This document shows, in pieces, positions 12,700-62,137 of a stretch of DNA of 64,000 bases (its first letter is position 1; the number at the start of each line of letters is the position of its first letter). The position numbers and the translations under genes were made by a program. Source of the stretch: Octopus vulgaris (lineage: Eukaryota); assembly GCA_951406725.2 (NCBI GenBank), contig OX597821.1, forward strand, positions 23,498,001 to 23,562,000, written 5' to 3'. Under the pieces are notes generated by a model. It was not told where the DNA came from, did not search any database, and saw nothing but the letters and a program-made list of their open reading frames with translations.

Positions 12700-15590
12700 C
12701 TTTGTCAAGTCCATACTTGTTGCAAAGTGCCCTATGGATAATCCTTACTCTTTTGTCATAACGTCTCTTATATTGTTTCTGGACTGGTAATATGCCATAC
12801 GGTTTCACCATTTTGTTAACGAATTCTGCACTTATCACTTTCTGATGTGTTGTCTATTCTGTATTTCATGTAATTGGTTCTTACTGCTTGCTCTTGGACA
12901 GCACAGATTAGAGCCTCCATTTTCGGTTTTAAATCACTTTTAGTCATCCATAGTCATCTTTTTTCTCTGTCTGTCTTCAACATTCCTAAGAAATTGTCCA
13001 TACATTCTTTTCTTTATCCACCCATTTTCAGCTTCATTTATTCTCAAGTCCTTGTACAGTGCTTTATCTTTGCAATCTTCCATCCTACACAAGTCTGACC
13101 TTCTTACTTCCAATATTAAGGCGGCGAGCTGGCAGAAACTTCAGCACGCCGGACGAAATGCTTAGCGGTATTTCGTCTGTCTTTACGTTCTGAGTTCAAA
13201 TTCCGCTGAGGTCGACTTTGCCTTTCATCCTTTCGGGGTCCATAAATTAAGTATCACTTGCGTACTGGGGTCGACCTAATCGACCCCACCCCCACCCAAA
13301 TGTCGGGCCTTGTGTCTAGAGTAGAAAAGAATATTAGTATTGATAGGTTCAATCTTATTCCGTCCGTTTAATTTCAACTTAAGGATTAGTCTCAGTCTGC
13401 GCAAGTACTCCACCTTAAATGTTTTTGTCATTTCTTTTTCCTTCAATTTATCCATTTCCAATATCCCCAAGAACGTATAACCCGTCTCTACTATCTGCTT
13501 CATAACCTCCCCCGATGGTATCGCTAGCCCATATATACATATAATTTTACCTCTCTTCAAGATTAACATACCACACGTTTTCAGTCTGAACTCCATTCTG
13601 ATATCAGCACTGAAAGTATACACCATATCAATGAGGGAACTGACTTGGGATTCATCTTTACCATAAGTTATGATGTCATTCATGAATAACAAGTGGTTGA
13701 ATTTCTGTTGGAGGCTTTTGAATACATATCCAGCTTTTGCTTTACTCGGAATCAGTGTTAGCGGTATCATGCACAGTACAAAAATCAGCGGGGACAGGCA
13801 GTCCCCTTGGAAATGCCTCTCCTGATTTCTATTGTCCCCAAACTTCTTCCATATGCTGTCAGTTCCGTCCTCCACTTCGCCATACTTTTTACAAGCAGTC
13901 GCTCAACATCCGATGAACCAAATGGGTTCATACATTCCATAATCCAAGAATGTTAGTTTTCCTCCTCTTGCCGTCTCTAAGTACAGTTTTGTCTACCAGG
14001 AGTTGATCCTTGCTACCTCTGCAATTATGCTTGCAACCCATTTTCCCCCCAGATGTCCGTACATTGACTATTCCAGTCAATAATTTCCACATAAGTGGCA
14101 AGCAGGATATCGGCCTGTAATTGTCTACCGTATTGCCTTTTTCGATGTTTTTCAAGCACAGCATTGTCCTACCTATTGTCAACCACTCTGGTGTTACTTG
14201 GTCTTTTGATCCAGTAGCCTTGAACTCCATCTGGTCCCGGGGTCTTCCCGTTGCCCTTTTTCTTTTTGCTAATTTCCTTCACTTCCTTTACTAAAATGAC
14301 TGGCTCTGCCTGTTTTGGACAGACTACTTTTTGCTTCAGTTCTTGCAACAATTCAGCATCCTTCTTGTACTCCTTGTCTTTGCTCCAGGTGTCACTCCAA
14401 AACCTCTGACCTTCAATGTTATCTGGTATCAACTTTTCATCTGTACAGTCTCCATTTATTTCTTTGTAGAATCTCTTCTGATCCACTCTGAATAACCTAT
14501 TCTGCTGGTATTCCTTCATTATTTGGTCATATCTTACCATCTTTACTTTCTTTGCAACGCGGCGCTGTTTCAGTTCCTTCATTACCACTTTCAGGCCCTT
14601 TCTTTCAATATCATACTTCCTGTTCAGCGCCCTGTATTTTTGTTCGCTTTTATGCTCCCCTTCTCTTTTCGGTCTGGCACAGAAATGTCCTTCGAGAGCA
14701 TGTCTAACCCCGCCTGCATTCTTCTTTTCCACCATGGATCTTTTCTTTTGCCACTCTCGTTATATTTCTTTTTCTTGACATCAGCACTCACGTTTTCTGC
14801 TACAACAATACTTACTACTTTGATCAAATTGTTTGTTTCTGTGATGTTTTTTGTTCTAATGTATTTCCGAATTTTATTCACATTTTTTGTTTCCTGGTTG
14901 AATTTCTACCGATCAACCTCTTTAAGGTTGCAAATAATGTCGGTATCGTTTTCCTGTAGCCTTGCCTTTATTCCGTCCTAGATTGCCTTTTGCCCAGCTG
15001 TCATCTTACCATTAATTTTATTGTCTTCTTCCAAACTATCTATATGTCTCTCATCGAGCAAGCTATCATGGTTCCTTTCCTGTGGTTTATAAGAGATTTC
15101 ATCTCTGTTTTGTGCTATCATATTTTATCAGTAGGAGCTGTATTTTCATCGTTTCCTCTGTTGCTGTTTTCCGGAACTTATGTGAACCAACAATTTCTTT
15201 TCGTATTGCTCTAGCTTGATCGCATAATCTCTGTTCCGTGAGTTGAAACAATCCTCTTTCTCTCCGTTGATCATACATACGTTGTTGGTATCCCTTAAGA
15301 TGAACACCATTTTCGTCTACGGGGTTTCTCAAGTGGTAACACTCCATGACCACAGCATTGACTTGTTTGTTCCATCTACGCCGTGTGCGTTGGTCCCTTG
15401 CTAGATAACGACAGGCTGGAGTCCGACCAATATCTCTGAGCCTGCCGGGTGCAACACTTTCACTATCAAGTTCTTCAGTTTCATTACCACCGTTATTCAC
15501 AATATTTTGTTTTTTCATTGTCACTCATATGAGGTAGCGATTATCAGGTTGCGTAATTACCAGTGTTTTTACTGACACCATCCCTAGATG
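12700..15590 (-). mobile_element. Decayed R4/Dong-type RLE non-LTR retrotransposon (RT + CCHC knuckle), interrupted by SINE B at 13118-13333
   Basis: Frameshifted pieces: N-terminal TEQRLCDQARAIRK, NYRPISCLPLMWKLLT, FQGDCLSPLIFVLCM, HLLFMNDI; EALICAVQEQAVRTNY and DKCRI..ETVWHITS near 12790-12950; (TAA)n tract upstream. Confidence 0.9.
13118..13333 (+). mobile_element. SINE family B, tail 2, nested in the LINE
   Basis: AAGGCGGCGAGCTGGCAG ... CTAGAGTAGAAAAGAATA. Confidence 0.9.
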
Positions 15591-19269: not shown

Positions 19270-20905
19270 CTATGAGTTTGCCAATAGCAAGATGAAAATA
19301 AATCAGCTGCTCTAAATGGATGACTGCAAGACATATACAAAACTACCAAAAACGCAACAGGCCTGAATTCTCTAATCCAAACAGTGAGAGTATTCAGTAA
19401 AGACATTGCAATGGAATTTGGGGTAGATAAATGCGCTGTACTAATTATGAAGATAAAGTGCGGTGGCATAAAATTACCACAAGATAACGTCTTTAGATCG
19501 CTGTGGAATAATGAGAGGATACAAATACGTAGGAGTGCTGCAAGGCGATAAGATAATAGAAAGAGAAAAGAGAAAGTCACTACAGAGCACGAGAGGAGAA
19601 TTAGAAACGTACTCAAAATACAATTAAATGGAGGGAACATCATTAAAGCCATAAATACACGGGTTAAACTAGTGTTGAGATACTCAGCTCCCTTTCTGAA
19701 ATAGACAAATTTCGAGCTGCCAAACCTGGTTAAAAGAACCATAAAGCTGCTAACAATGCACAACGCACCCCGTCTTCAAAGTAATACCGACCGACTCTAT
19801 CAACCACGGAAGGAATATGGCAGATTATTACTAAACGCAGAATACACTGTTAGTACTGCGATACTGAGTCTGAAAAATTATGTTGGGCTGAGTAAAGAAA
19901 GATTACTTTCGGCAACAAGAGATACCCAGAATGTGGCTGGTAGAGTAGGACAATTCAAAGAGAAAAGGAAAAACAACAAGCCAATGGAAAGAAATGGAAC
20001 TACGTACATGGCCAGTTCATGCAATAAACCGAGAAAGCTGGAAGCAAAGATCGCTTGTTGGCTGAGTGTGTGGCTTCAGAGCAGCAGAAAAGTGAGAATT
20101 ACAAGATCTTGTGGAGGGCTGCACCCTTGCCTTCTTTGGAGGAGGTGAGTCACGGTGCTTTCCACTGCATTGACTGGGCTTTGGTCTCGGGATCATAGTG
20201 ATGGACCCAGGTTTCATCCTGTGTAATCAGTCTTTTGAAAAATTTTGATTCATCTTCCGACCATGTTTGAATTCACGATGCCAGCGTTTTACAAGGTCAT
20301 ATGATGGAGCATCATCACCACAAGTTACTTTAATTTCATCAAAAGTCTCCCGTGGTGTGCGTTCTTTCAAATACAAAAACCGGATCACTGCTCGACACTC
20401 GACAAGCTCCATTTCACACTTGACTCAATTCAAACACCTGTAAATCAGAAACCACAATTAGTTCAGAGCTGTAATTTGCTACTTAATTTATAGAGATATA
20501 AATAATTACAAAATGAGAATTACAAGATCTTGTGGGACTTTGCTGTAAAGACTGACCATACTATTGAGGCAAGGGGACCAGACATGTTTAAAGAGTGTAA
20601 AATACATAGAGTAAGATCCTAAGTTTTGCAATTTCGTATGACAGCAGAAAAGATACCAAAGAAATTGAAAAAATTAAGAAATATCAGGATCTACCCAGTG
20701 AGTTGAGGTGAGTGTGGAAGTCAAACACAACAATTATTCCTGTAGTAATTAGTTCACTTGGTGCAATACCCAAATTGTTGCCTAAAAGACTGAAAGAGAT
20801 TGCAAATGAAACTCGCACTGTCGAACTGTAGAAAAGTACCACCTTAAAAAAGATTCTCGAGGTTTTAGAAGACTTGTCGCCAAATTTCAAGATAAAATAC
20901 CTTGG
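19270..20905 (+). mobile_element. Decayed R4/Dong-type RLE LINE, 3' portion, with (TAT)n tail
   Basis: INQLL*MDD, LIQTVRVFSKDIAMEFGVDKC, DRLYQPRKEYGR, ENYKILWDF..TDHTIEARGPD, KYQDL, IIPVVISSLG. Confidence 0.88.
20115..20513 (-). mobile_element. Mariner transposase 5' fragment (HTH + DETW motif) inserted in the LINE
   Basis: MELVECRAVIRFLYLK..APSYDLVKRWHREFKHGR and DETWVHHYDPETK..PPPKKARVQPS; flanked by a 22-bp direct repeat. Confidence 0.85.
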
Positions 20906-38077: not shown

Positions 38078-38289
38078 ATCTATATAATAAATCTCTGAAC
38101 GAGGTATAAACAGTAACTGCACGACAATGTGAAGTATATTTGCCATCTAAATATGGATAACCACTAAGGGTGGATGTTACTGTAGCTTGTAGCCCCAGAA
38201 GAACATCTTCTCCAGCTGGCTATTGACACACTTTCTGTACCCTATCGGTATTTGCAGTGGGAAGCCATCCTTCCCATCGTCGACCTGAC

Positions 38290-38348
38290 GTGATACGCAC
38301 GGACCCGGGTTTCTGGATATTTACCCGTCATCAGCGCACGACAATCAC
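38290..38348 (-). ncRNA. Type I hammerhead ribozyme
   Basis: Minus strand: GTGAT tgt CGTGCG-CTGATGA-cGGGT aaat ATCCa-GAAA-CCCGGG-TC-CGTGCG t ATCAC; GUC site, palindromic stem III. Confidence 0.8.
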
Positions 38349-38497
38349 CGGTCTTCGATGCGAAGGGGTCCCGATGCAAAAACATATATACCAGGACTTC
38401 GATGGTTGCAACGAGAACTTCGTAACTAGCCGTCCATACTCTGTTTATATCTGAAATTTACATATATAATAACAAAATGTATGTAGCAAAATGCAGT

Positions 38498-39690: not shown

Positions 39691-39769
39691 TGACAATCTT
39701 TCCCAGCAAATGAAAGAAGTAGACAGCAATAATAATTCTCTAAAAGGAATATAGACAGTAACTGCTCGA

Positions 39770-40082
39770 CAACATAAGGGACTAAAGCCATCTGAATATG
39801 GCTAGGGACAGGGCAGGGTGGTGGGGGTGTTACTGTTGCATTTAGCCCCAGGCGAACATCGACGTCACCAGAAAGGCTCGACACCGTCACGGTGCCCTAA
39901 ACCTGCAAAGGGAGGTAATTCCCAAAGGGGGAATTACCTCCCTTTGCAGGTTTAGGGCACCGTGACGGTGTCGAGCCTTTCTGGTGACGTCGATGTTCGC
40001 CTGGGGCTAAATGCAACAGTAACACCCCCACCACCCTGCCCTGTCCCTAGCCATATTCAGATGGCTTTAGTCCCTTATGTTG
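39770..40082. repeat. Perfect palindrome: 154-bp arms, 5-nt loop
   Basis: 39770-39923 is the reverse complement of 39929-40082; loop AAAGG. Confidence 0.95.
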
Positions 40083-40140
40083 AAAGAAGTAGAGTCAGCT
40101 GTTTATACATCCGATGTCATGTTAGATTTTACTGTTTACA

Positions 40141-44024: not shown

Positions 44025-44352
44025 ATAGTATCTTCATCTTTCATCTTCAAATTGTTTCAGTTTTTGGACTGCGGCCATGCTGGGCCACCACCTTGAGAAG
44101 TTTAGTCGAAAAAATTGATCCGGTACTTATTTTTTATAAACCTGATCCGTATTCTATCGGTCACTTTTGCCGAACCACTGGATCTCGGGACGTAAACAAA
44201 TAAAAATTGATCGTCAAGCGGTGGCGAGCACAAACACAAACAGAAAGACACCTCCTTGCGCTTGACTTTTCTTTATTGTCTGTGTACTCTTAAACTAACC
44301 ACGAGGCCTTTTCTTTCTCTATTTTGAGGAGAGGTTATCGGGTATCGGCTGT

Positions 44353-44416
44353 TAGGGTCTGACGAGACGTATGTAAAACTAAGCGCTTCATAGACGCGAA
44401 ACTTTGGGTAACCCTA
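44353..44416 (+). ncRNA. Solo type I hammerhead ribozyme
   Basis: TAGGGT-CTGACGA-G a CGT ATG..CAT ag ACG C-GAAA-CTTTGGG-TA-ACCCTA; perfect 6-bp stem I, intact core, GUA site. Confidence 0.75.
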
Positions 44417-53732: not shown

Positions 53733-53809
53733 TTTTTCCTTATAAATGTCCTGAAAACTTCCCACAGCCTTGGCTTTGTTATCTCATTTTGTAAAATCAT
53801 ACTAGTAAA

Positions 53810-54690
53810 ATCTATTTGCCAACATAAATTGGCAGTCCTGATTAGGACGATGTTACTACCCTTTTTAGCCCCAGGAAAACATCTTTTCCAGCTGGCTACC
53901 AACGCACAACTGCATCCCCCGACAAGGGAGTTAATGTTCCCACTCACCTTAAACGGTACCTTGTTTCTGGGTTATTTCTTTTCGTCGTCGCAGGATAACT
54001 GTTGGCTAGAGATGGCAGCACTAGGCCCTTCTCCAGTTATATACTTTTAAAATGACACACAGTCACTCATCTCATTAAGAGGAAAACAATTAGTCTTCAA
54101 TCTCCGAGCGAGAAGTAAGTAGTAACGGTACTGCAGAGTAAAAGGCGGCGAGCTGGCTGAAACGTTAGCACGCCGGGCGAAATGCTTAGCGGTATTTCGT
54201 CTGCGTTACGTTGTGAGTTCAAATTCCGCCGAGGTCGACTTTGCCTTTCATCCTTTCGGGGTCGATAAATTAAGTACCAGTTACGCACTGGGGTCGATGT
54301 AATCAACTTAATACCTATGTCTGTCCTTTTTGTCCCCTCTGTGTTTAGCCCCTTGTGGGTAATAAAGAAATATGTACTAAAGAGTAAAGTCTATTTGCCT
54401 TCGTAAAATAGCAGTCCTGATTAAGACGATGTTACTACCTTTTTTTAGCCCCAGGAAAACATCTTTTTCAGCTGGCTACCGACTACTAGGAACATACCCA
54501 ATGCTTAAATAATTATATACATACAATTTAAATTATATCATCGGCGAGTTAACTTGGAATTCCCTAACGACAACGTAGCCTTCATATAATTAAGGTATCT
54601 TCAGCCTGACTAGTAGCTGGCTGAGTACCCCTCTTTGAGTAATTATTATATCTGACGATCTGCTAGCTAGGAAACATATGTAGCCAGAAC
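53810..54690. mobile_element. Tandem pair of the 38-kb retrozyme-like unit (333-bp period after removing SINE B at 54143-54388)
   Basis: GATGTTACT..TAGCCCCAGGAAAACATC..CTGGCTA at 53849 and 54428; hammerhead remnants downstream. Confidence 0.65.
54143..54373 (+). mobile_element. SINE family B, tail 1
   Basis: TSD GTACTGCAGAGTAAA / GTACTAAAGAGTAAA. Confidence 0.92.
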
Positions 54691-56479: not shown

Positions 56480-58075
56480 GGTCTCAGCTCCCACCCCGGC
56501 CTCACTGTGTCCCTAGGAAGATCTTGATCTTCATCACCAGTTCGACGTAAAGTGCTTTTCCCAACCGCACCCACACATATTAATCCATGGGATCACAATC
56601 GGGAAATGCAGGAGGTAAGAAATTGTGGGTGGTGAAGTCTTAGAAATTCTCCAATGATTACTTCTGACACTTTCCCGAAACAGTCCTCTCCAGCTAGGAT
56701 GTCTACTGTCTACAGCTTCACATAGTCGTCAGAATTGAACCTAAGTCCCTGTTCATAGACAAGGGAACATTTTCGGTGTGCGGATGCTGTCAGAACGCCT
56801 GCAGTGTCCCTTCCTACAGGTCATGGCTTCGTAGTCTCCGTTGCTGTTGTCCATGGCGTGGCTTACAGACTTTACAGTAGTCATGATATCGGCATTTTGA
56901 TACTCTGCGTGAACCATTATGGTATATCCCGAAGGCGGCGAGCTGGCAGAAATGTTAGCGCGCCGGGCGAAATGCTTAGCGGTTTTTCTTCTGCCGCTAC
57001 GTTCTGAGTTCAAATTCCGCCGAGGTCGACTTTGCCCTTCATCCTTTCGGGGTCGATTAAATAAGTACCAGTTGCACATTGGAGTCGATATAATCGACTT
57101 AATCCGTTTGTCTGTCCTTGTTTGTACTCTCTCTGCTTAGCCCCTTGTGGGTAGTAAAGAAATAGCTATTTCTTCTGCCGTTATGTTCTGAGTTCAAATT
57201 CCGCCGAGGTCGACTTTGCATTTCATCCTTTCGGGGGTCGATAAATTAAGTACCAGTTACGCACTGGAGTCGATGTAATCGACGTAATCCCTTTGTCTGT
57301 CCTTGTTTGTCCCCTCTATGCTTAGCCCCTTGTAGGCAATAAAGAAATAAGAAACATTAGCACGTCGAGCGAAATGCTTAGCGGTATTTCGTCTGCCGTT
57401 ACGTTCTGAGTTCAAATTCTGCCGAGGTTGACTTTGCATTTCATCCTTTCGGGGTCGATGAAATAAGTACCAGTTAAGCACTGGGGTCAATGTAATCAAC
57501 TTAATCTGTTTGGCTGTCCTTGTTTGTCTCCTCTATGTTTAGCACCTTGGGGGTAATAAAGAAATAGGTAATTTCGTCTGCCGCTACATTCTGAGTTCAA
57601 ATTCCGTCGAGGTCGACTTTGCCTTTCATCCTTTCGGGGTCGATTAAATAAGTACCAGTTACTCAATGGGGCCGATATAATCGACTTAATCCGTTTGTCT
57701 GTCCTTGTTTGTCCTGTCTGTGTTTAGCCCCTTGTGGGTAGCAAAGAAATAGAAATAGGTATTTCGTCTGCCTTTACGTTTTGAGTTCAAATTCCGCTGA
57801 GATCGACTTTGCCTTTCATCCTTTCGGAGTCGATAAATTAAGTGTCAGTTGCGTACTGGGGTCGATCTAATCGACTGGCCATCTCCTCAAAGATTTCGAT
57901 CCTTGTGTCTAGATTGGAGAAGATTATGATACAGCCCTCCACATCAGCCAACTTTTTCTCAGCTACAACTTTTATATTTATGTTCTCCAACGCTGTCGAC
58001 TGTTCGACAATACATGAAGTTATTCCTGCAAAAAGGAGAACTAAAAAATCGTCAAATTTAGCTCGAACTACCTGT
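56480..58075 (-). mobile_element. Decayed Tc1/mariner (maT-like) transposon interrupted by the SINE B array
   Basis: GLRFNSDDYVKL and NFLPPAFPDCDPMD*YVW (degenerate WPPNSPDLNPMDYYVW). Confidence 0.7.
56932..57922 (+). mobile_element. Head-to-tail pentamer of SINE family B
   Basis: Units start at about 56932, 57165, 57351, 57567 and 57758; the last has tail 2; degenerate TSD ATTATGGTATATCCC / ATTATGATACAGCCC. Confidence 0.9.
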
Positions 58076-61633: not shown

Positions 61634-61887
61634 ACACACACACACACTCACACACACAAATACATAAACATATACGAACGAGATTTTCTTTCACTTTCTA
61701 TCTATCAAATCCACTCACAAAAGCTTTAGTCAGTCCAACTGAATGGAATCTTGGACTGACTAAAGCTTTTGTGAGTGGATTTGATAGATAGAAAGCGAAA
61801 GAAAATCTCGTGCGTATATGTTTATGTATTTGTGTGTGTGAGTGTGTGTGTGTGTCCAAGATACCCATTCAGTTGGACTGAAAAAGC
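61634..61887. repeat. Fold-back inverted duplication (105-bp arms, 12-nt loop, loop region copied again inverted)
   Basis: 61634-61738 vs 61751-61855 (2 mismatches); 61854-61887 approximates the reverse complement of 61723-61756. Confidence 0.88.
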
Positions 61888-62137
61888 ATATGTATGTATG
61901 TATGTATATATGTATGCGTGCATGTAGGTATGTATGTATGTATATATGCATGCGTGCATGTGGGTATGTATGTATGTATGTATATATATATGTATGCATG
62001 CATGCATGCATGCATGTATGTATGTATGTATGTATGTATGTTTGTATGTATGTATGCATGTATGCATGTATGTATGTATGCATGCATGCATGCATGTATG
62101 TATGTATGTATGTATGTATGTATGTATGTATGTATAC

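What the first reader, a model, noticed from the sequence alone, without database searches (positions are those of the whole stretch)
39711..40093. Perfect 313-bp palindrome is a fold-back insertion of the hammerhead-element family, bounded by a 13-bp direct repeat
Seen: the 154-bp arms are perfect, with a 5-nt loop. TGAAAGAAGTAGA occurs at 39711-39723 and 40081-40093. The enclosed sequence from about 39727 is homologous to 38083 onward (AATAAT..TCTCT..TATA.ACAGTAACTGC.CGACAA..GCCATCT.AATATGG..TGTTACTGT..TAGCCCCAG..AACATC). The turn-around falls at the GGGA..TCCC hairpin, which in the 38-kb copy lies about 27 nt from the HHR cleavage site. Inference: reverse transcription ran to near the ribozyme-defined RNA 5' end, folded back on the hairpin and copied itself. 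This matches the inverted pseudo-LTRs known for Penelope-like elements. Arm identity implies a recent event, and the locus could yield hairpin dsRNA.
Basis: partly seen in the sequence, partly recalled or inferred. Interest (0 to 1): 0.75.

Follow-up and report, generated by a model that had tools for sequence, protein, structure and literature searches.

The report
Young Penelope-style mirror insertion, empty site
A short repeat from a family that carries a predicted self-cutting RNA motif sits here as two perfect mirror-image copies between a 13-base duplication, and another data set has the same spot empty; the layout matches known Penelope-type retrotransposon insertions, and it was likely made by copying the RNA from both cut ends of the chromosome.

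Summary
In detail: perfect 154-bp arms, a 5-nt loop, a 13-bp direct repeat, and homology to the hammerhead-bearing copy at 38 kb. A contig of run X2 holds the empty site with one 13-mer. So the repeat is a target-site duplication and the 370-bp insertion is recent. None of the listed pieces showed the filled allele.

The left copy has 46 extra bases. Older copies end either with or without this piece, which is the Penelope one-sided 'tail'. The turn-around lies 23 nt short of the predicted cleavage site, just past the small hairpin, and a 4-nt linker foreign to the family joins the arms.

Best model: Penelope-like machinery primed reverse transcription from both target ends. Both cDNAs stalled at the foot of the ribozyme's long helix and were end-joined (0.5). 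The main rival is one cDNA copying itself (0.3).

The architecture is published for Penelope-like elements. No autonomous partner, RNA or editing was shown. Its value lies in a small, young, multicopy, non-coding family in which the open questions can be tested: how Penelope inversions form, and what mobilises animal retrozymes.

The parts
39711..39723 (+). Target-site duplication, left copy (13 bp)
   Evidence: Two copies in the window; single copy in the empty allele of X2, joint 39710->40081 skipping 370 with 13 letters fitting both sides
39724..39769 (-). One-sided 46-nt extension ('tail'); family sequence from 39725, entered internally (start site 1)
   Evidence: No mirror copy; 36/46 identical to the 38-kb copy, absent from the 53.8-kb copy (8/46); family continues left of 39725 in X4 and X6 contigs
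39770..39923 (-). Left arm: 5'-truncated family copy (RNA sense is inferred to be the minus strand), ending after the GGGAG-GTAA-TTCCC hairpin (39910-39923)
   Evidence: X4 contig 17 matches 39725-39923 with 3 differences and goes on for 92 nt
39924..39928 (.). Loop AAAGG; 39924-39927 is not family sequence; 39928 is the family's fourth C on the bottom strand
   Evidence: Family continues CGATG after TTCCC (X4), and X6 contig 26 matches from 39928; CAAAGGG repeats 39906-39912; bottom-strand hairpin -7.2 kcal/mol, 1 of 200 shuffles as stable
39929..40082 (+). Right arm: inverted tail-less copy, outer end at the position equal to 39770-39772 (start site 2)
   Evidence: homology of the 53.8-kb copy starts at the position equal to about 39773
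40081..40093 (+). Target-site duplication, right copy; shares TG with the arm end
38084..38366 (-). Older family copy with tail and type I hammerhead (core 38334-38302) inside a long predicted helix reaching 38269/38366; abuts a (TATG)n/(TA)n run
   Evidence: z -3.5, 0 of 200 shuffles; flank duplex 2 of 2000 shuffles; no Rfam hit
53804..54091 (-). Older tail-less family copy with a decayed hammerhead remnant near 53960-53995; first unit of a partial tandem (period about 333 nt)
54092..54490 (-). Second unit of that tandem, with tail (54092-54141), split by a SINE at about 54142-54376 flanked by AGAGTAAA
   Evidence: tail 28/46 identical to the 38-kb copy, 0 of 1000 shuffles as good

Best explanation
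This is a recent 370-bp insertion of two head-to-head, 5'-truncated copies of a non-coding repeat family with a predicted hammerhead ribozyme, likely made by Penelope-like (PLE) reverse transcriptase-endonuclease priming cDNA from both cut ends of the target. Shown: the 13-bp duplication with an empty allele, perfect arms, the one-sided 46-nt tail, entry into the family at an internal position, a foreign 4-nt linker, and a stop 23 nt before the GUC site. Inferred: staggered nicks 13 bp apart left two 3' ends. The left end primed at start site 1 (about 39724, with tail) and the right end at start site 2 (about 39771, 2-nt TG match). Both cDNAs stalled in the C-run at the foot of the ribozyme's extended helix I. 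The right cDNA folded on its small hairpin and added TTTG, and the two ends were joined through 1-2 nt of microhomology. The RNA was likely a retrozyme-like or pseudo-LTR transcript mobilised in trans. The insertion itself is likely a neutral passenger. Confidence in a PLE-type insertion overall is about 0.85; the 0.5 given is for the two-primer step.
For: Empty site: one X2 contig (135 nt, depth 14, 0 other letters in the listed piece) joins the flanks with a single 13-mer. Two recurrent ends: of 4 insertion ends in the window, 2 lie at site 1 (39724; 38084, equal to 39729) and 2 at site 2 (right arm; 53804); a random end would fall in that 5-nt interval about 2.5% of the time. This is the PLE 'tail' found at one end only (PMC8557442 section 6; PMC3846280 passages). 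In vitro the Anolis PLE protein cuts and extends both target strands, starts internally at two adjacent sites that bound the tail, and is predicted to be a dimer (PMC11167929). The family runs on beyond the left junction (X4, X6), so the start is internal. The inverted arm includes the family's fourth C, which the left arm lacks. The linker completes a bottom-strand hairpin (-7.2 kcal/mol, z -2.9), versus -4.1 kcal/mol, z -1.2 for the top-strand self-priming hairpin. In the 38-kb copy the equivalent point lies 6 nt inside the foot of a long helix with pair probabilities near 1.0. No reading frame is shared among the copies.
Against: The arms are identical and nearly symmetric, as self-copying predicts. 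One of the two other inversion joints listed (39805 to the mirror of 39809, X2) is also symmetric within 4 nt, which independent stops would give about 9-11% of the time for at least 1 of 2. The other (39786 vs 39853, X1) is asymmetric by 67 nt. Both are single contigs marked 'between: not known'. PMC3846280 reads junction palindromes as self-priming, and PMC8557442 ascribes the tail to endonuclease resolution. The site-2 match rests on one old copy. The tail (44-49 nt) is longer than the 30-40 nt reported. The hairpin test on the linker is post hoc. The long helix is predicted only for the 70%-identical 38-kb copy; only 30 letters of the young family's continuation were visible. No PLE ORF or partner was found. 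Rfam does not recognise the hammerhead, whose helix II has a C-A mismatch at its base. The filled allele was in none of the listed pieces of 4 runs (26 of 1175 pieces shown). A decayed SINE at 61.7 kb also forms a head-to-head palindrome, so this genome makes fold-backs by other routes too.
Confidence: 0.5

Rival explanations
1. One cDNA, primed at the left end, stalled after the hairpin, gained AAAGGG by slippage, snapped back on CCC and copied itself. It was then cut or stopped at site 2 and joined to the right target end through TG.
For: 154/154 identity; near-symmetric axis; near-symmetric joint in another copy; CAAAGGG is a direct repeat of 39906-39912; self-priming proposed in PMC3846280. 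The left arm carries a minority C at 39770 (T in about 96% of X1 depth) that extends the match to the target's TG.
Against: It needs a 1-nt-primed slip plus a 2-nt register shift to give five G. The top-strand hairpin is weak (24 of 200 shuffles as stable). It needs a separate reason for ending at site 2. Identity does not discriminate, because near-identical family copies are common (X1: 389 of 1010 contigs 99%+ alike; X6 contig 23 has 0 differences over 90 nt). The C variant also exists in another family copy (X4 contig 18).
Confidence: 0.3
2. cDNA ran to the ribozyme-cut RNA end and formed a longer perfect palindrome, whose centre was later cut and rejoined with filler bases.
For: It explains the extra family base on one arm and the foreign linker. 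Central rearrangement of long palindromes is recalled from general knowledge, not from a call.
Against: The insertion is young (empty allele). The loss would have to end within 1 nt on both arms, exactly at the predicted helix foot.
Confidence: 0.08
3. A simple insertion was later turned into a palindrome by a DNA-level template switch, as probably happened to the SINE at 61.7 kb.
For: 61634-61855: arms 103/105 identical but only about 77-83% like other SINE copies over the stretch tested.
Against: The return point coincides with the start of the intact 13-bp duplication and with site 2, which is unlikely for a later event.
Confidence: 0.05
4. Assembly or long-read fold-back artefact.
For: No listed piece of the 4 runs spans the loop or the right junction; the best run held 0.61 of the sampled words.
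Against: A fold-back chimera would mirror the flank too. Here the right flank is the true continuation seen in the empty allele, with a 13-bp duplication and a foreign linker. Polishing could still have evened out small differences between the arms.
Confidence: 0.04
5. LINE-driven SINE with twin-priming inversion, or a MITE/foldback DNA transposon.
For: Target-site duplication; an AAT repeat near the left end; decayed LINE fragments in the window.
Against: Twin priming (recalled model) inverts a different part of the RNA, whereas here the same 154 nt are duplicated. The family continues past the left junction, so there is no 3' tail. The inverted repeat does not reach the left terminus. Other copies are not palindromic.
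Confidence: 0.03

Closest known systems
Endonuclease-containing Penelope-like element insertions with inverted pseudo-LTRs (Adineta vaga Pen2a/Pen2/Pen3a, PMC3846280; Penelope and Naiad structures, PMC8557442 Fig. 2)
   Same: Head-to-head inverted 5'-truncated copy, tail at one end only, target-site duplication with an empty site, about 200-bp terminal unit, partial tandems, hammerhead in the repeat family
   Different: No ORF between or beside the arms (the insertion is the bare inverted pair); duplication 13 bp versus 8-10; tail 44-49 nt versus 30-40; partner element not identified
Anolis Poseidon PAc in vitro (PMC11167929)
   Same: Internal start of reverse transcription at two nearby sites; both target strands extended; hammerhead upstream of the start sites
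   Different: In PAc this region is the ORF start and the start site has no homology to the target; here the region is non-coding, with 4-nt (left, followed by one mismatch) and 2-nt (right) end matches
Metazoan non-LTR retrozymes (PMC7229834; bioRxiv 10.64898/2026.07.22.740005)
   Same: Non-coding, multicopy, canonical-type type I hammerhead (6-bp helix I, 4-bp helix II, 2-bp helix III with palindromic tetraloop as in PMC4209133), tandem period about 333 nt in older copies
   Different: Circular RNA, self-cleavage and a tandem of intact ribozymes were not shown. Inverted, tailed insertions are not mentioned in the passages read of those papers.

Membership tests
Penelope-like element (EN+ PLE) insertion | ORF with telomerase-like RT and GIY-YIG endonuclease | tested here: not met
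   The insertion is 370 bp, with stops in all three + frames and no frame conserved between copies. No such ORF was recognised by eye among the 67 ORFs >=120 aa in the window (not scanned against families). It is not an autonomous PLE.
Penelope-like element (EN+ PLE) insertion | Adjacent inverted 5'-truncated copy (head-to-head) | tested here: met
Penelope-like element (EN+ PLE) insertion | 30-40-bp tail at one end only | tested here: met
   46 nt at the left only; present or absent at the same boundary in older copies; somewhat longer than reported
Penelope-like element (EN+ PLE) insertion | Short target-site duplication with empty site | tested here: met
   13 bp; empty allele in 1 of 4 runs laid, the only run covering the flanks
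Penelope-like element (EN+ PLE) insertion | Type I hammerhead in the terminal repeat | tested here: inconclusive
   Core motif and helices in the 38-kb copy; GUC plus a palindromic tetraloop in the young family (X4); no Rfam hit; truncated away in this insertion
Penelope-like element (EN+ PLE) insertion | Sequence match to the pseudo-LTR of an autonomous PLE of the same genome | not testable with these tools
   No whole genome held; no hits in metagenome or viral contigs
Non-LTR retrozyme | Non-coding | tested here: met
   Frame-shifting indels between copies, no shared open frame
Non-LTR retrozyme | Tandem 170-400-nt monomers, each with a type I hammerhead | tested here: inconclusive
   Partial tandem of about 333-nt period at 53.8-54.5 kb with one decayed ribozyme; not shown for the young family
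Non-LTR retrozyme | Abundant circular RNA and self-cleavage | not testable with these tools
   Only contigs were available; the RNA status of the runs is a guess
MITE / foldback DNA transposon | Inverted repeats at both termini of every copy | tested here: not met
   46 nt unmirrored at the left end; other copies are not palindromic
LINE twin-priming inversion | Inverted and direct parts come from different stretches of the RNA; 3' tail present (recalled definition) | tested here: not met
   The same 154 nt are duplicated; the family continues past the left junction

The most novel reading that the evidence does not exclude
This is an active animal retrozyme caught with the full Penelope insertion signature: two internal start sites, both target ends primed, a stall at the ribozyme's helix, and end-joining of two cDNAs. 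That would be insertion-level evidence that PLE machinery, not LINEs or plain rolling-circle copying, spreads retrozymes, and that PLE inverted repeats are two cDNAs joined head to head. Polymorphic perfect hairpins of this kind could also feed dsRNA editing or small RNAs.
Probability: 0.3. Interest if true: 0.65.

Novelty: new member of a known kind. Interest (0 to 1): 0.45.

Why it matters
How PLEs form their inverted structures is described as undefined (PMC8557442), and the enzyme that mobilises animal retrozymes is named only as a candidate (PMC7229834; the 2026 preprint). A compact, young, multicopy family with empty alleles and several inversion joints lets both be tested by computation alone: map arm ends, compare arm haplotypes, read the linkers. 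The single locus is an example of a published architecture and has no shown function.

Tried and rejected
No whole genome was held, so no genome-wide copy survey or partner search was possible.

Rfam on the whole window gave 252 matches at E<=1. The 150 listed were all below their gathering scores, mostly microsatellite or hairpin look-alikes of miRNA families, and included no hammerhead. Local scans at E<=10 gave no hammerhead hit at 38.2-38.6 kb or 44.3-44.45 kb.

Pattern scans found 0 matches in metagenome contigs and viral contigs.

Run search: no RNA holder was listed; 20 of 24 runs hold part of the stretch, best share 0.61, from 33 sampled words. The unlaid shares are no evidence. X1, X4 and X6 had no flank cover, which proves nothing.

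A>G and G>A differences in X6 also occur in DNA runs, so they are not taken as editing. Summed depths are not copy numbers; single X2 family contigs at depth 120 and 504 against 14 for the empty site only hint at many copies.

An idea that C39770 was written from the target by palindrome correction was dropped, because X4 contig 18 carries C in another copy. I first read the 54.4-kb copy as tail-less; its tail lies left of a SINE, so it was not counted as an independent end. A 10-bp AT-rich repeat around the 38-kb copy (38081, 38463) may be chance.

Supplements of PMC11167929 gave no term hits. Its Figs S1-S2 and the bioRxiv supplements were not seen and may bear on start-site spacing and insertion structures.

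Full report
Observation. The palindrome is as described: arms 39770-39923 and 39929-40082 are exact reverse complements around AAAGG. The 13-mer occurs twice in the window, at 39711-39723 and 40081-40093, the second sharing TG with the arm. Between the left 13-mer and the left arm lie 46 nt without a mirror copy. The left unit matches the 38-kb copy at 70% over 132 nt (E 7e-12). The window is rich in microsatellites and SINEs that I recall as octopus-type; this label comes from memory, not from a call.

The family. A shared motif occurs 5 times in the window (0 of 100 shuffles reach that): in both arms, at 38.2 kb, 53.85 kb and 54.43 kb. A profile of these copies found nothing further in the window. 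The 38-kb copy carries on its minus strand CUGAUGA, a 4-bp helix II, GAAA, a 2-bp helix III closed by the palindromic loop CCGG, GUC and a 6-bp helix I. This is the canonical metazoan type I layout described in PMC4209133 (passages). Helix II has a C-A mismatch at its base and Rfam gives no hit, so activity is unproven. Helix I is predicted to extend about 33 nt past the cleavage site, to 38269 (pair probabilities near 1.0 in the distal part; z -3.5; 2 of 2000 shuffles). No frame is conserved between copies. The 53.8- and 54.4-kb copies form a partial tandem of about 333-nt period, the second unit split by a SINE.

Public runs. Twenty of 24 listed runs hold part of the stretch, and four were laid. 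Five results follow. (a) One X2 contig, depth 14, joins 39710 to 40081 with 13 letters fitting either side: this is the empty site, and X2 is the only run that covered the flanks. The 13-mer is therefore a target-site duplication, and the 370-bp insert is absent from at least one chromosome. (b) The family is young and multicopy: 1010, 151, 8 and 2 contigs were laid for X1, X2, X6 and X4, many 95-100% alike. (c) Past 39923 the family reads CGATG and reaches the GUC site 23 nt on, next to a palindromic CAUG loop on the minus strand (X4). X6 contig 26 matches the right arm from 39928. So 39924-39927 is foreign, and the inverted arm has one more family base than the direct arm. (d) The family also continues left of 39725, so the insertion enters it internally; the last four target bases (TAGA) equal the family's, and the next base differs. 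(e) The two other listed joints are inversions in other copies: one nearly symmetric at 39805/39809, just after another small hairpin, and one asymmetric at 39786/39853. No listed piece shows the filled allele; only 26 of 1175 pieces and 20 of 91 loose ends were displayed.

The tail. Anchored at the position equal to 39774, the 46 nt to the left are 36/46 identical between this insertion and the 38-kb copy, and 28/46 between the 38- and 54.1-kb copies. Against the 53.8-kb copy they are only 8-11/46. Of four insertion ends, two start near 39724-39729 and two near 39770-39774. PMC8557442 (passages and section 6) describes an inverted 5'-truncated copy next to the 5' end and a 30-40-bp tail at one end only. 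PMC3846280 (passages, outline, Discussion) reports inverted pseudo-LTRs with 8-10-bp duplications, a 31-bp tail, an empty site and junction palindromes read as self-priming. PMC11167929 (parts 1-2 of 4) shows that a purified PLE protein cuts and extends both strands and starts at two internal sites bounding the tail.

Mechanism. Shown: the duplication, empty allele, internal entry, one-sided tail, foreign linker, and stop short of the cleavage site. Inferred: each target 3' end primed its own cDNA, one at each start site. Both stalled in the C-run a few bases inside the foot of the extended helix (inferred from the 38-kb copy). The bottom cDNA folded on its hairpin and added TTTG, giving a stable hairpin (-7.2 kcal/mol, 1 of 200 shuffles, post hoc), and the ends were joined by 1-2 nt of microhomology. 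This resembles synthesis-dependent end joining (PMC2943611 and PMC5728401, seen as search listings only). A tail-less cDNA cannot template the tailed arm, so this reading needs two cDNAs. The self-copy model remains open: it explains identity and symmetry, and has the second symmetric joint and a published interpretation behind it, but it needs a 1-nt-primed slip, a register shift and a separate cut at site 2. I put 0.5 against 0.3. A later DNA-level fold-back, as seems to have happened to a SINE at 61.7 kb, is unlikely here because the return point preserves the duplication exactly.

Comparison and novelty. It works like a PLE insertion but is not an autonomous PLE, since it has no ORF. Whether it is a retrozyme or a bare pseudo-LTR pair of an unseen PLE is undecided. 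PMC7229834 (passages, section 14) names PLEs only as strong candidates for mobilising retrozymes. The 2026 preprint (parts 1 and 3 of 5, passages) argues from co-occurrence and phylogeny and has no text on tails or inverted insertions. Searches for octopus plus hammerhead, palindromic Penelope insertions and retrozyme inversions listed no paper describing this family. The Octopus vulgaris repeat paper (passages) counts 31 recently active Penelope-like families and does not mention hammerheads. The library is incomplete and Repbase was not searchable. Verdict: a real, recent insertion of a published architecture; a new member of a known kind; interest 0.45 for its value as a test system.

Noticed in passing
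window 61634-61855 (and 61866-61889): Second head-to-head palindrome: 103/105-nt arms, 12-nt loop, made of a decayed SINE part whose arms share changes not in other copies (about 77-83% alike over the tested stretch), plus a short third inverted piece; likely a DNA-level fold-back after decay.
   Followed up: partly
window 53804-54490: Older partial tandem of the same family, period about 333 nt; a SINE inserted exactly at the tail boundary of the second unit, flanked by AGAGTAAA.
   Followed up: partly
window 44345-44415 (+): Unrelated type I hammerhead-like core (CUGACGA..GAAAC..GUA) with matching helix I flanks; no Rfam hit.
   Followed up: partly
window 38545-38517 (-) and 54652-54683 (+): Further hammerhead-like cores with palindromic helix III; the first lies 215 nt upstream of the 38-kb ribozyme.
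   Followed up: no
window 13276-15524 (-) and 19705-20148 (+): Decayed ORF fragments that look like a non-LTR reverse transcriptase (recognised by eye); not scanned.
   Followed up: no
window 56932-57927: Cluster of tandem, truncated copies of one SINE-like repeat.
   Followed up: no
runs X1 and X2, family positions 39786/39853 and 39805/39809: Two other inversion joints of the family, one contig each.
   Followed up: partly
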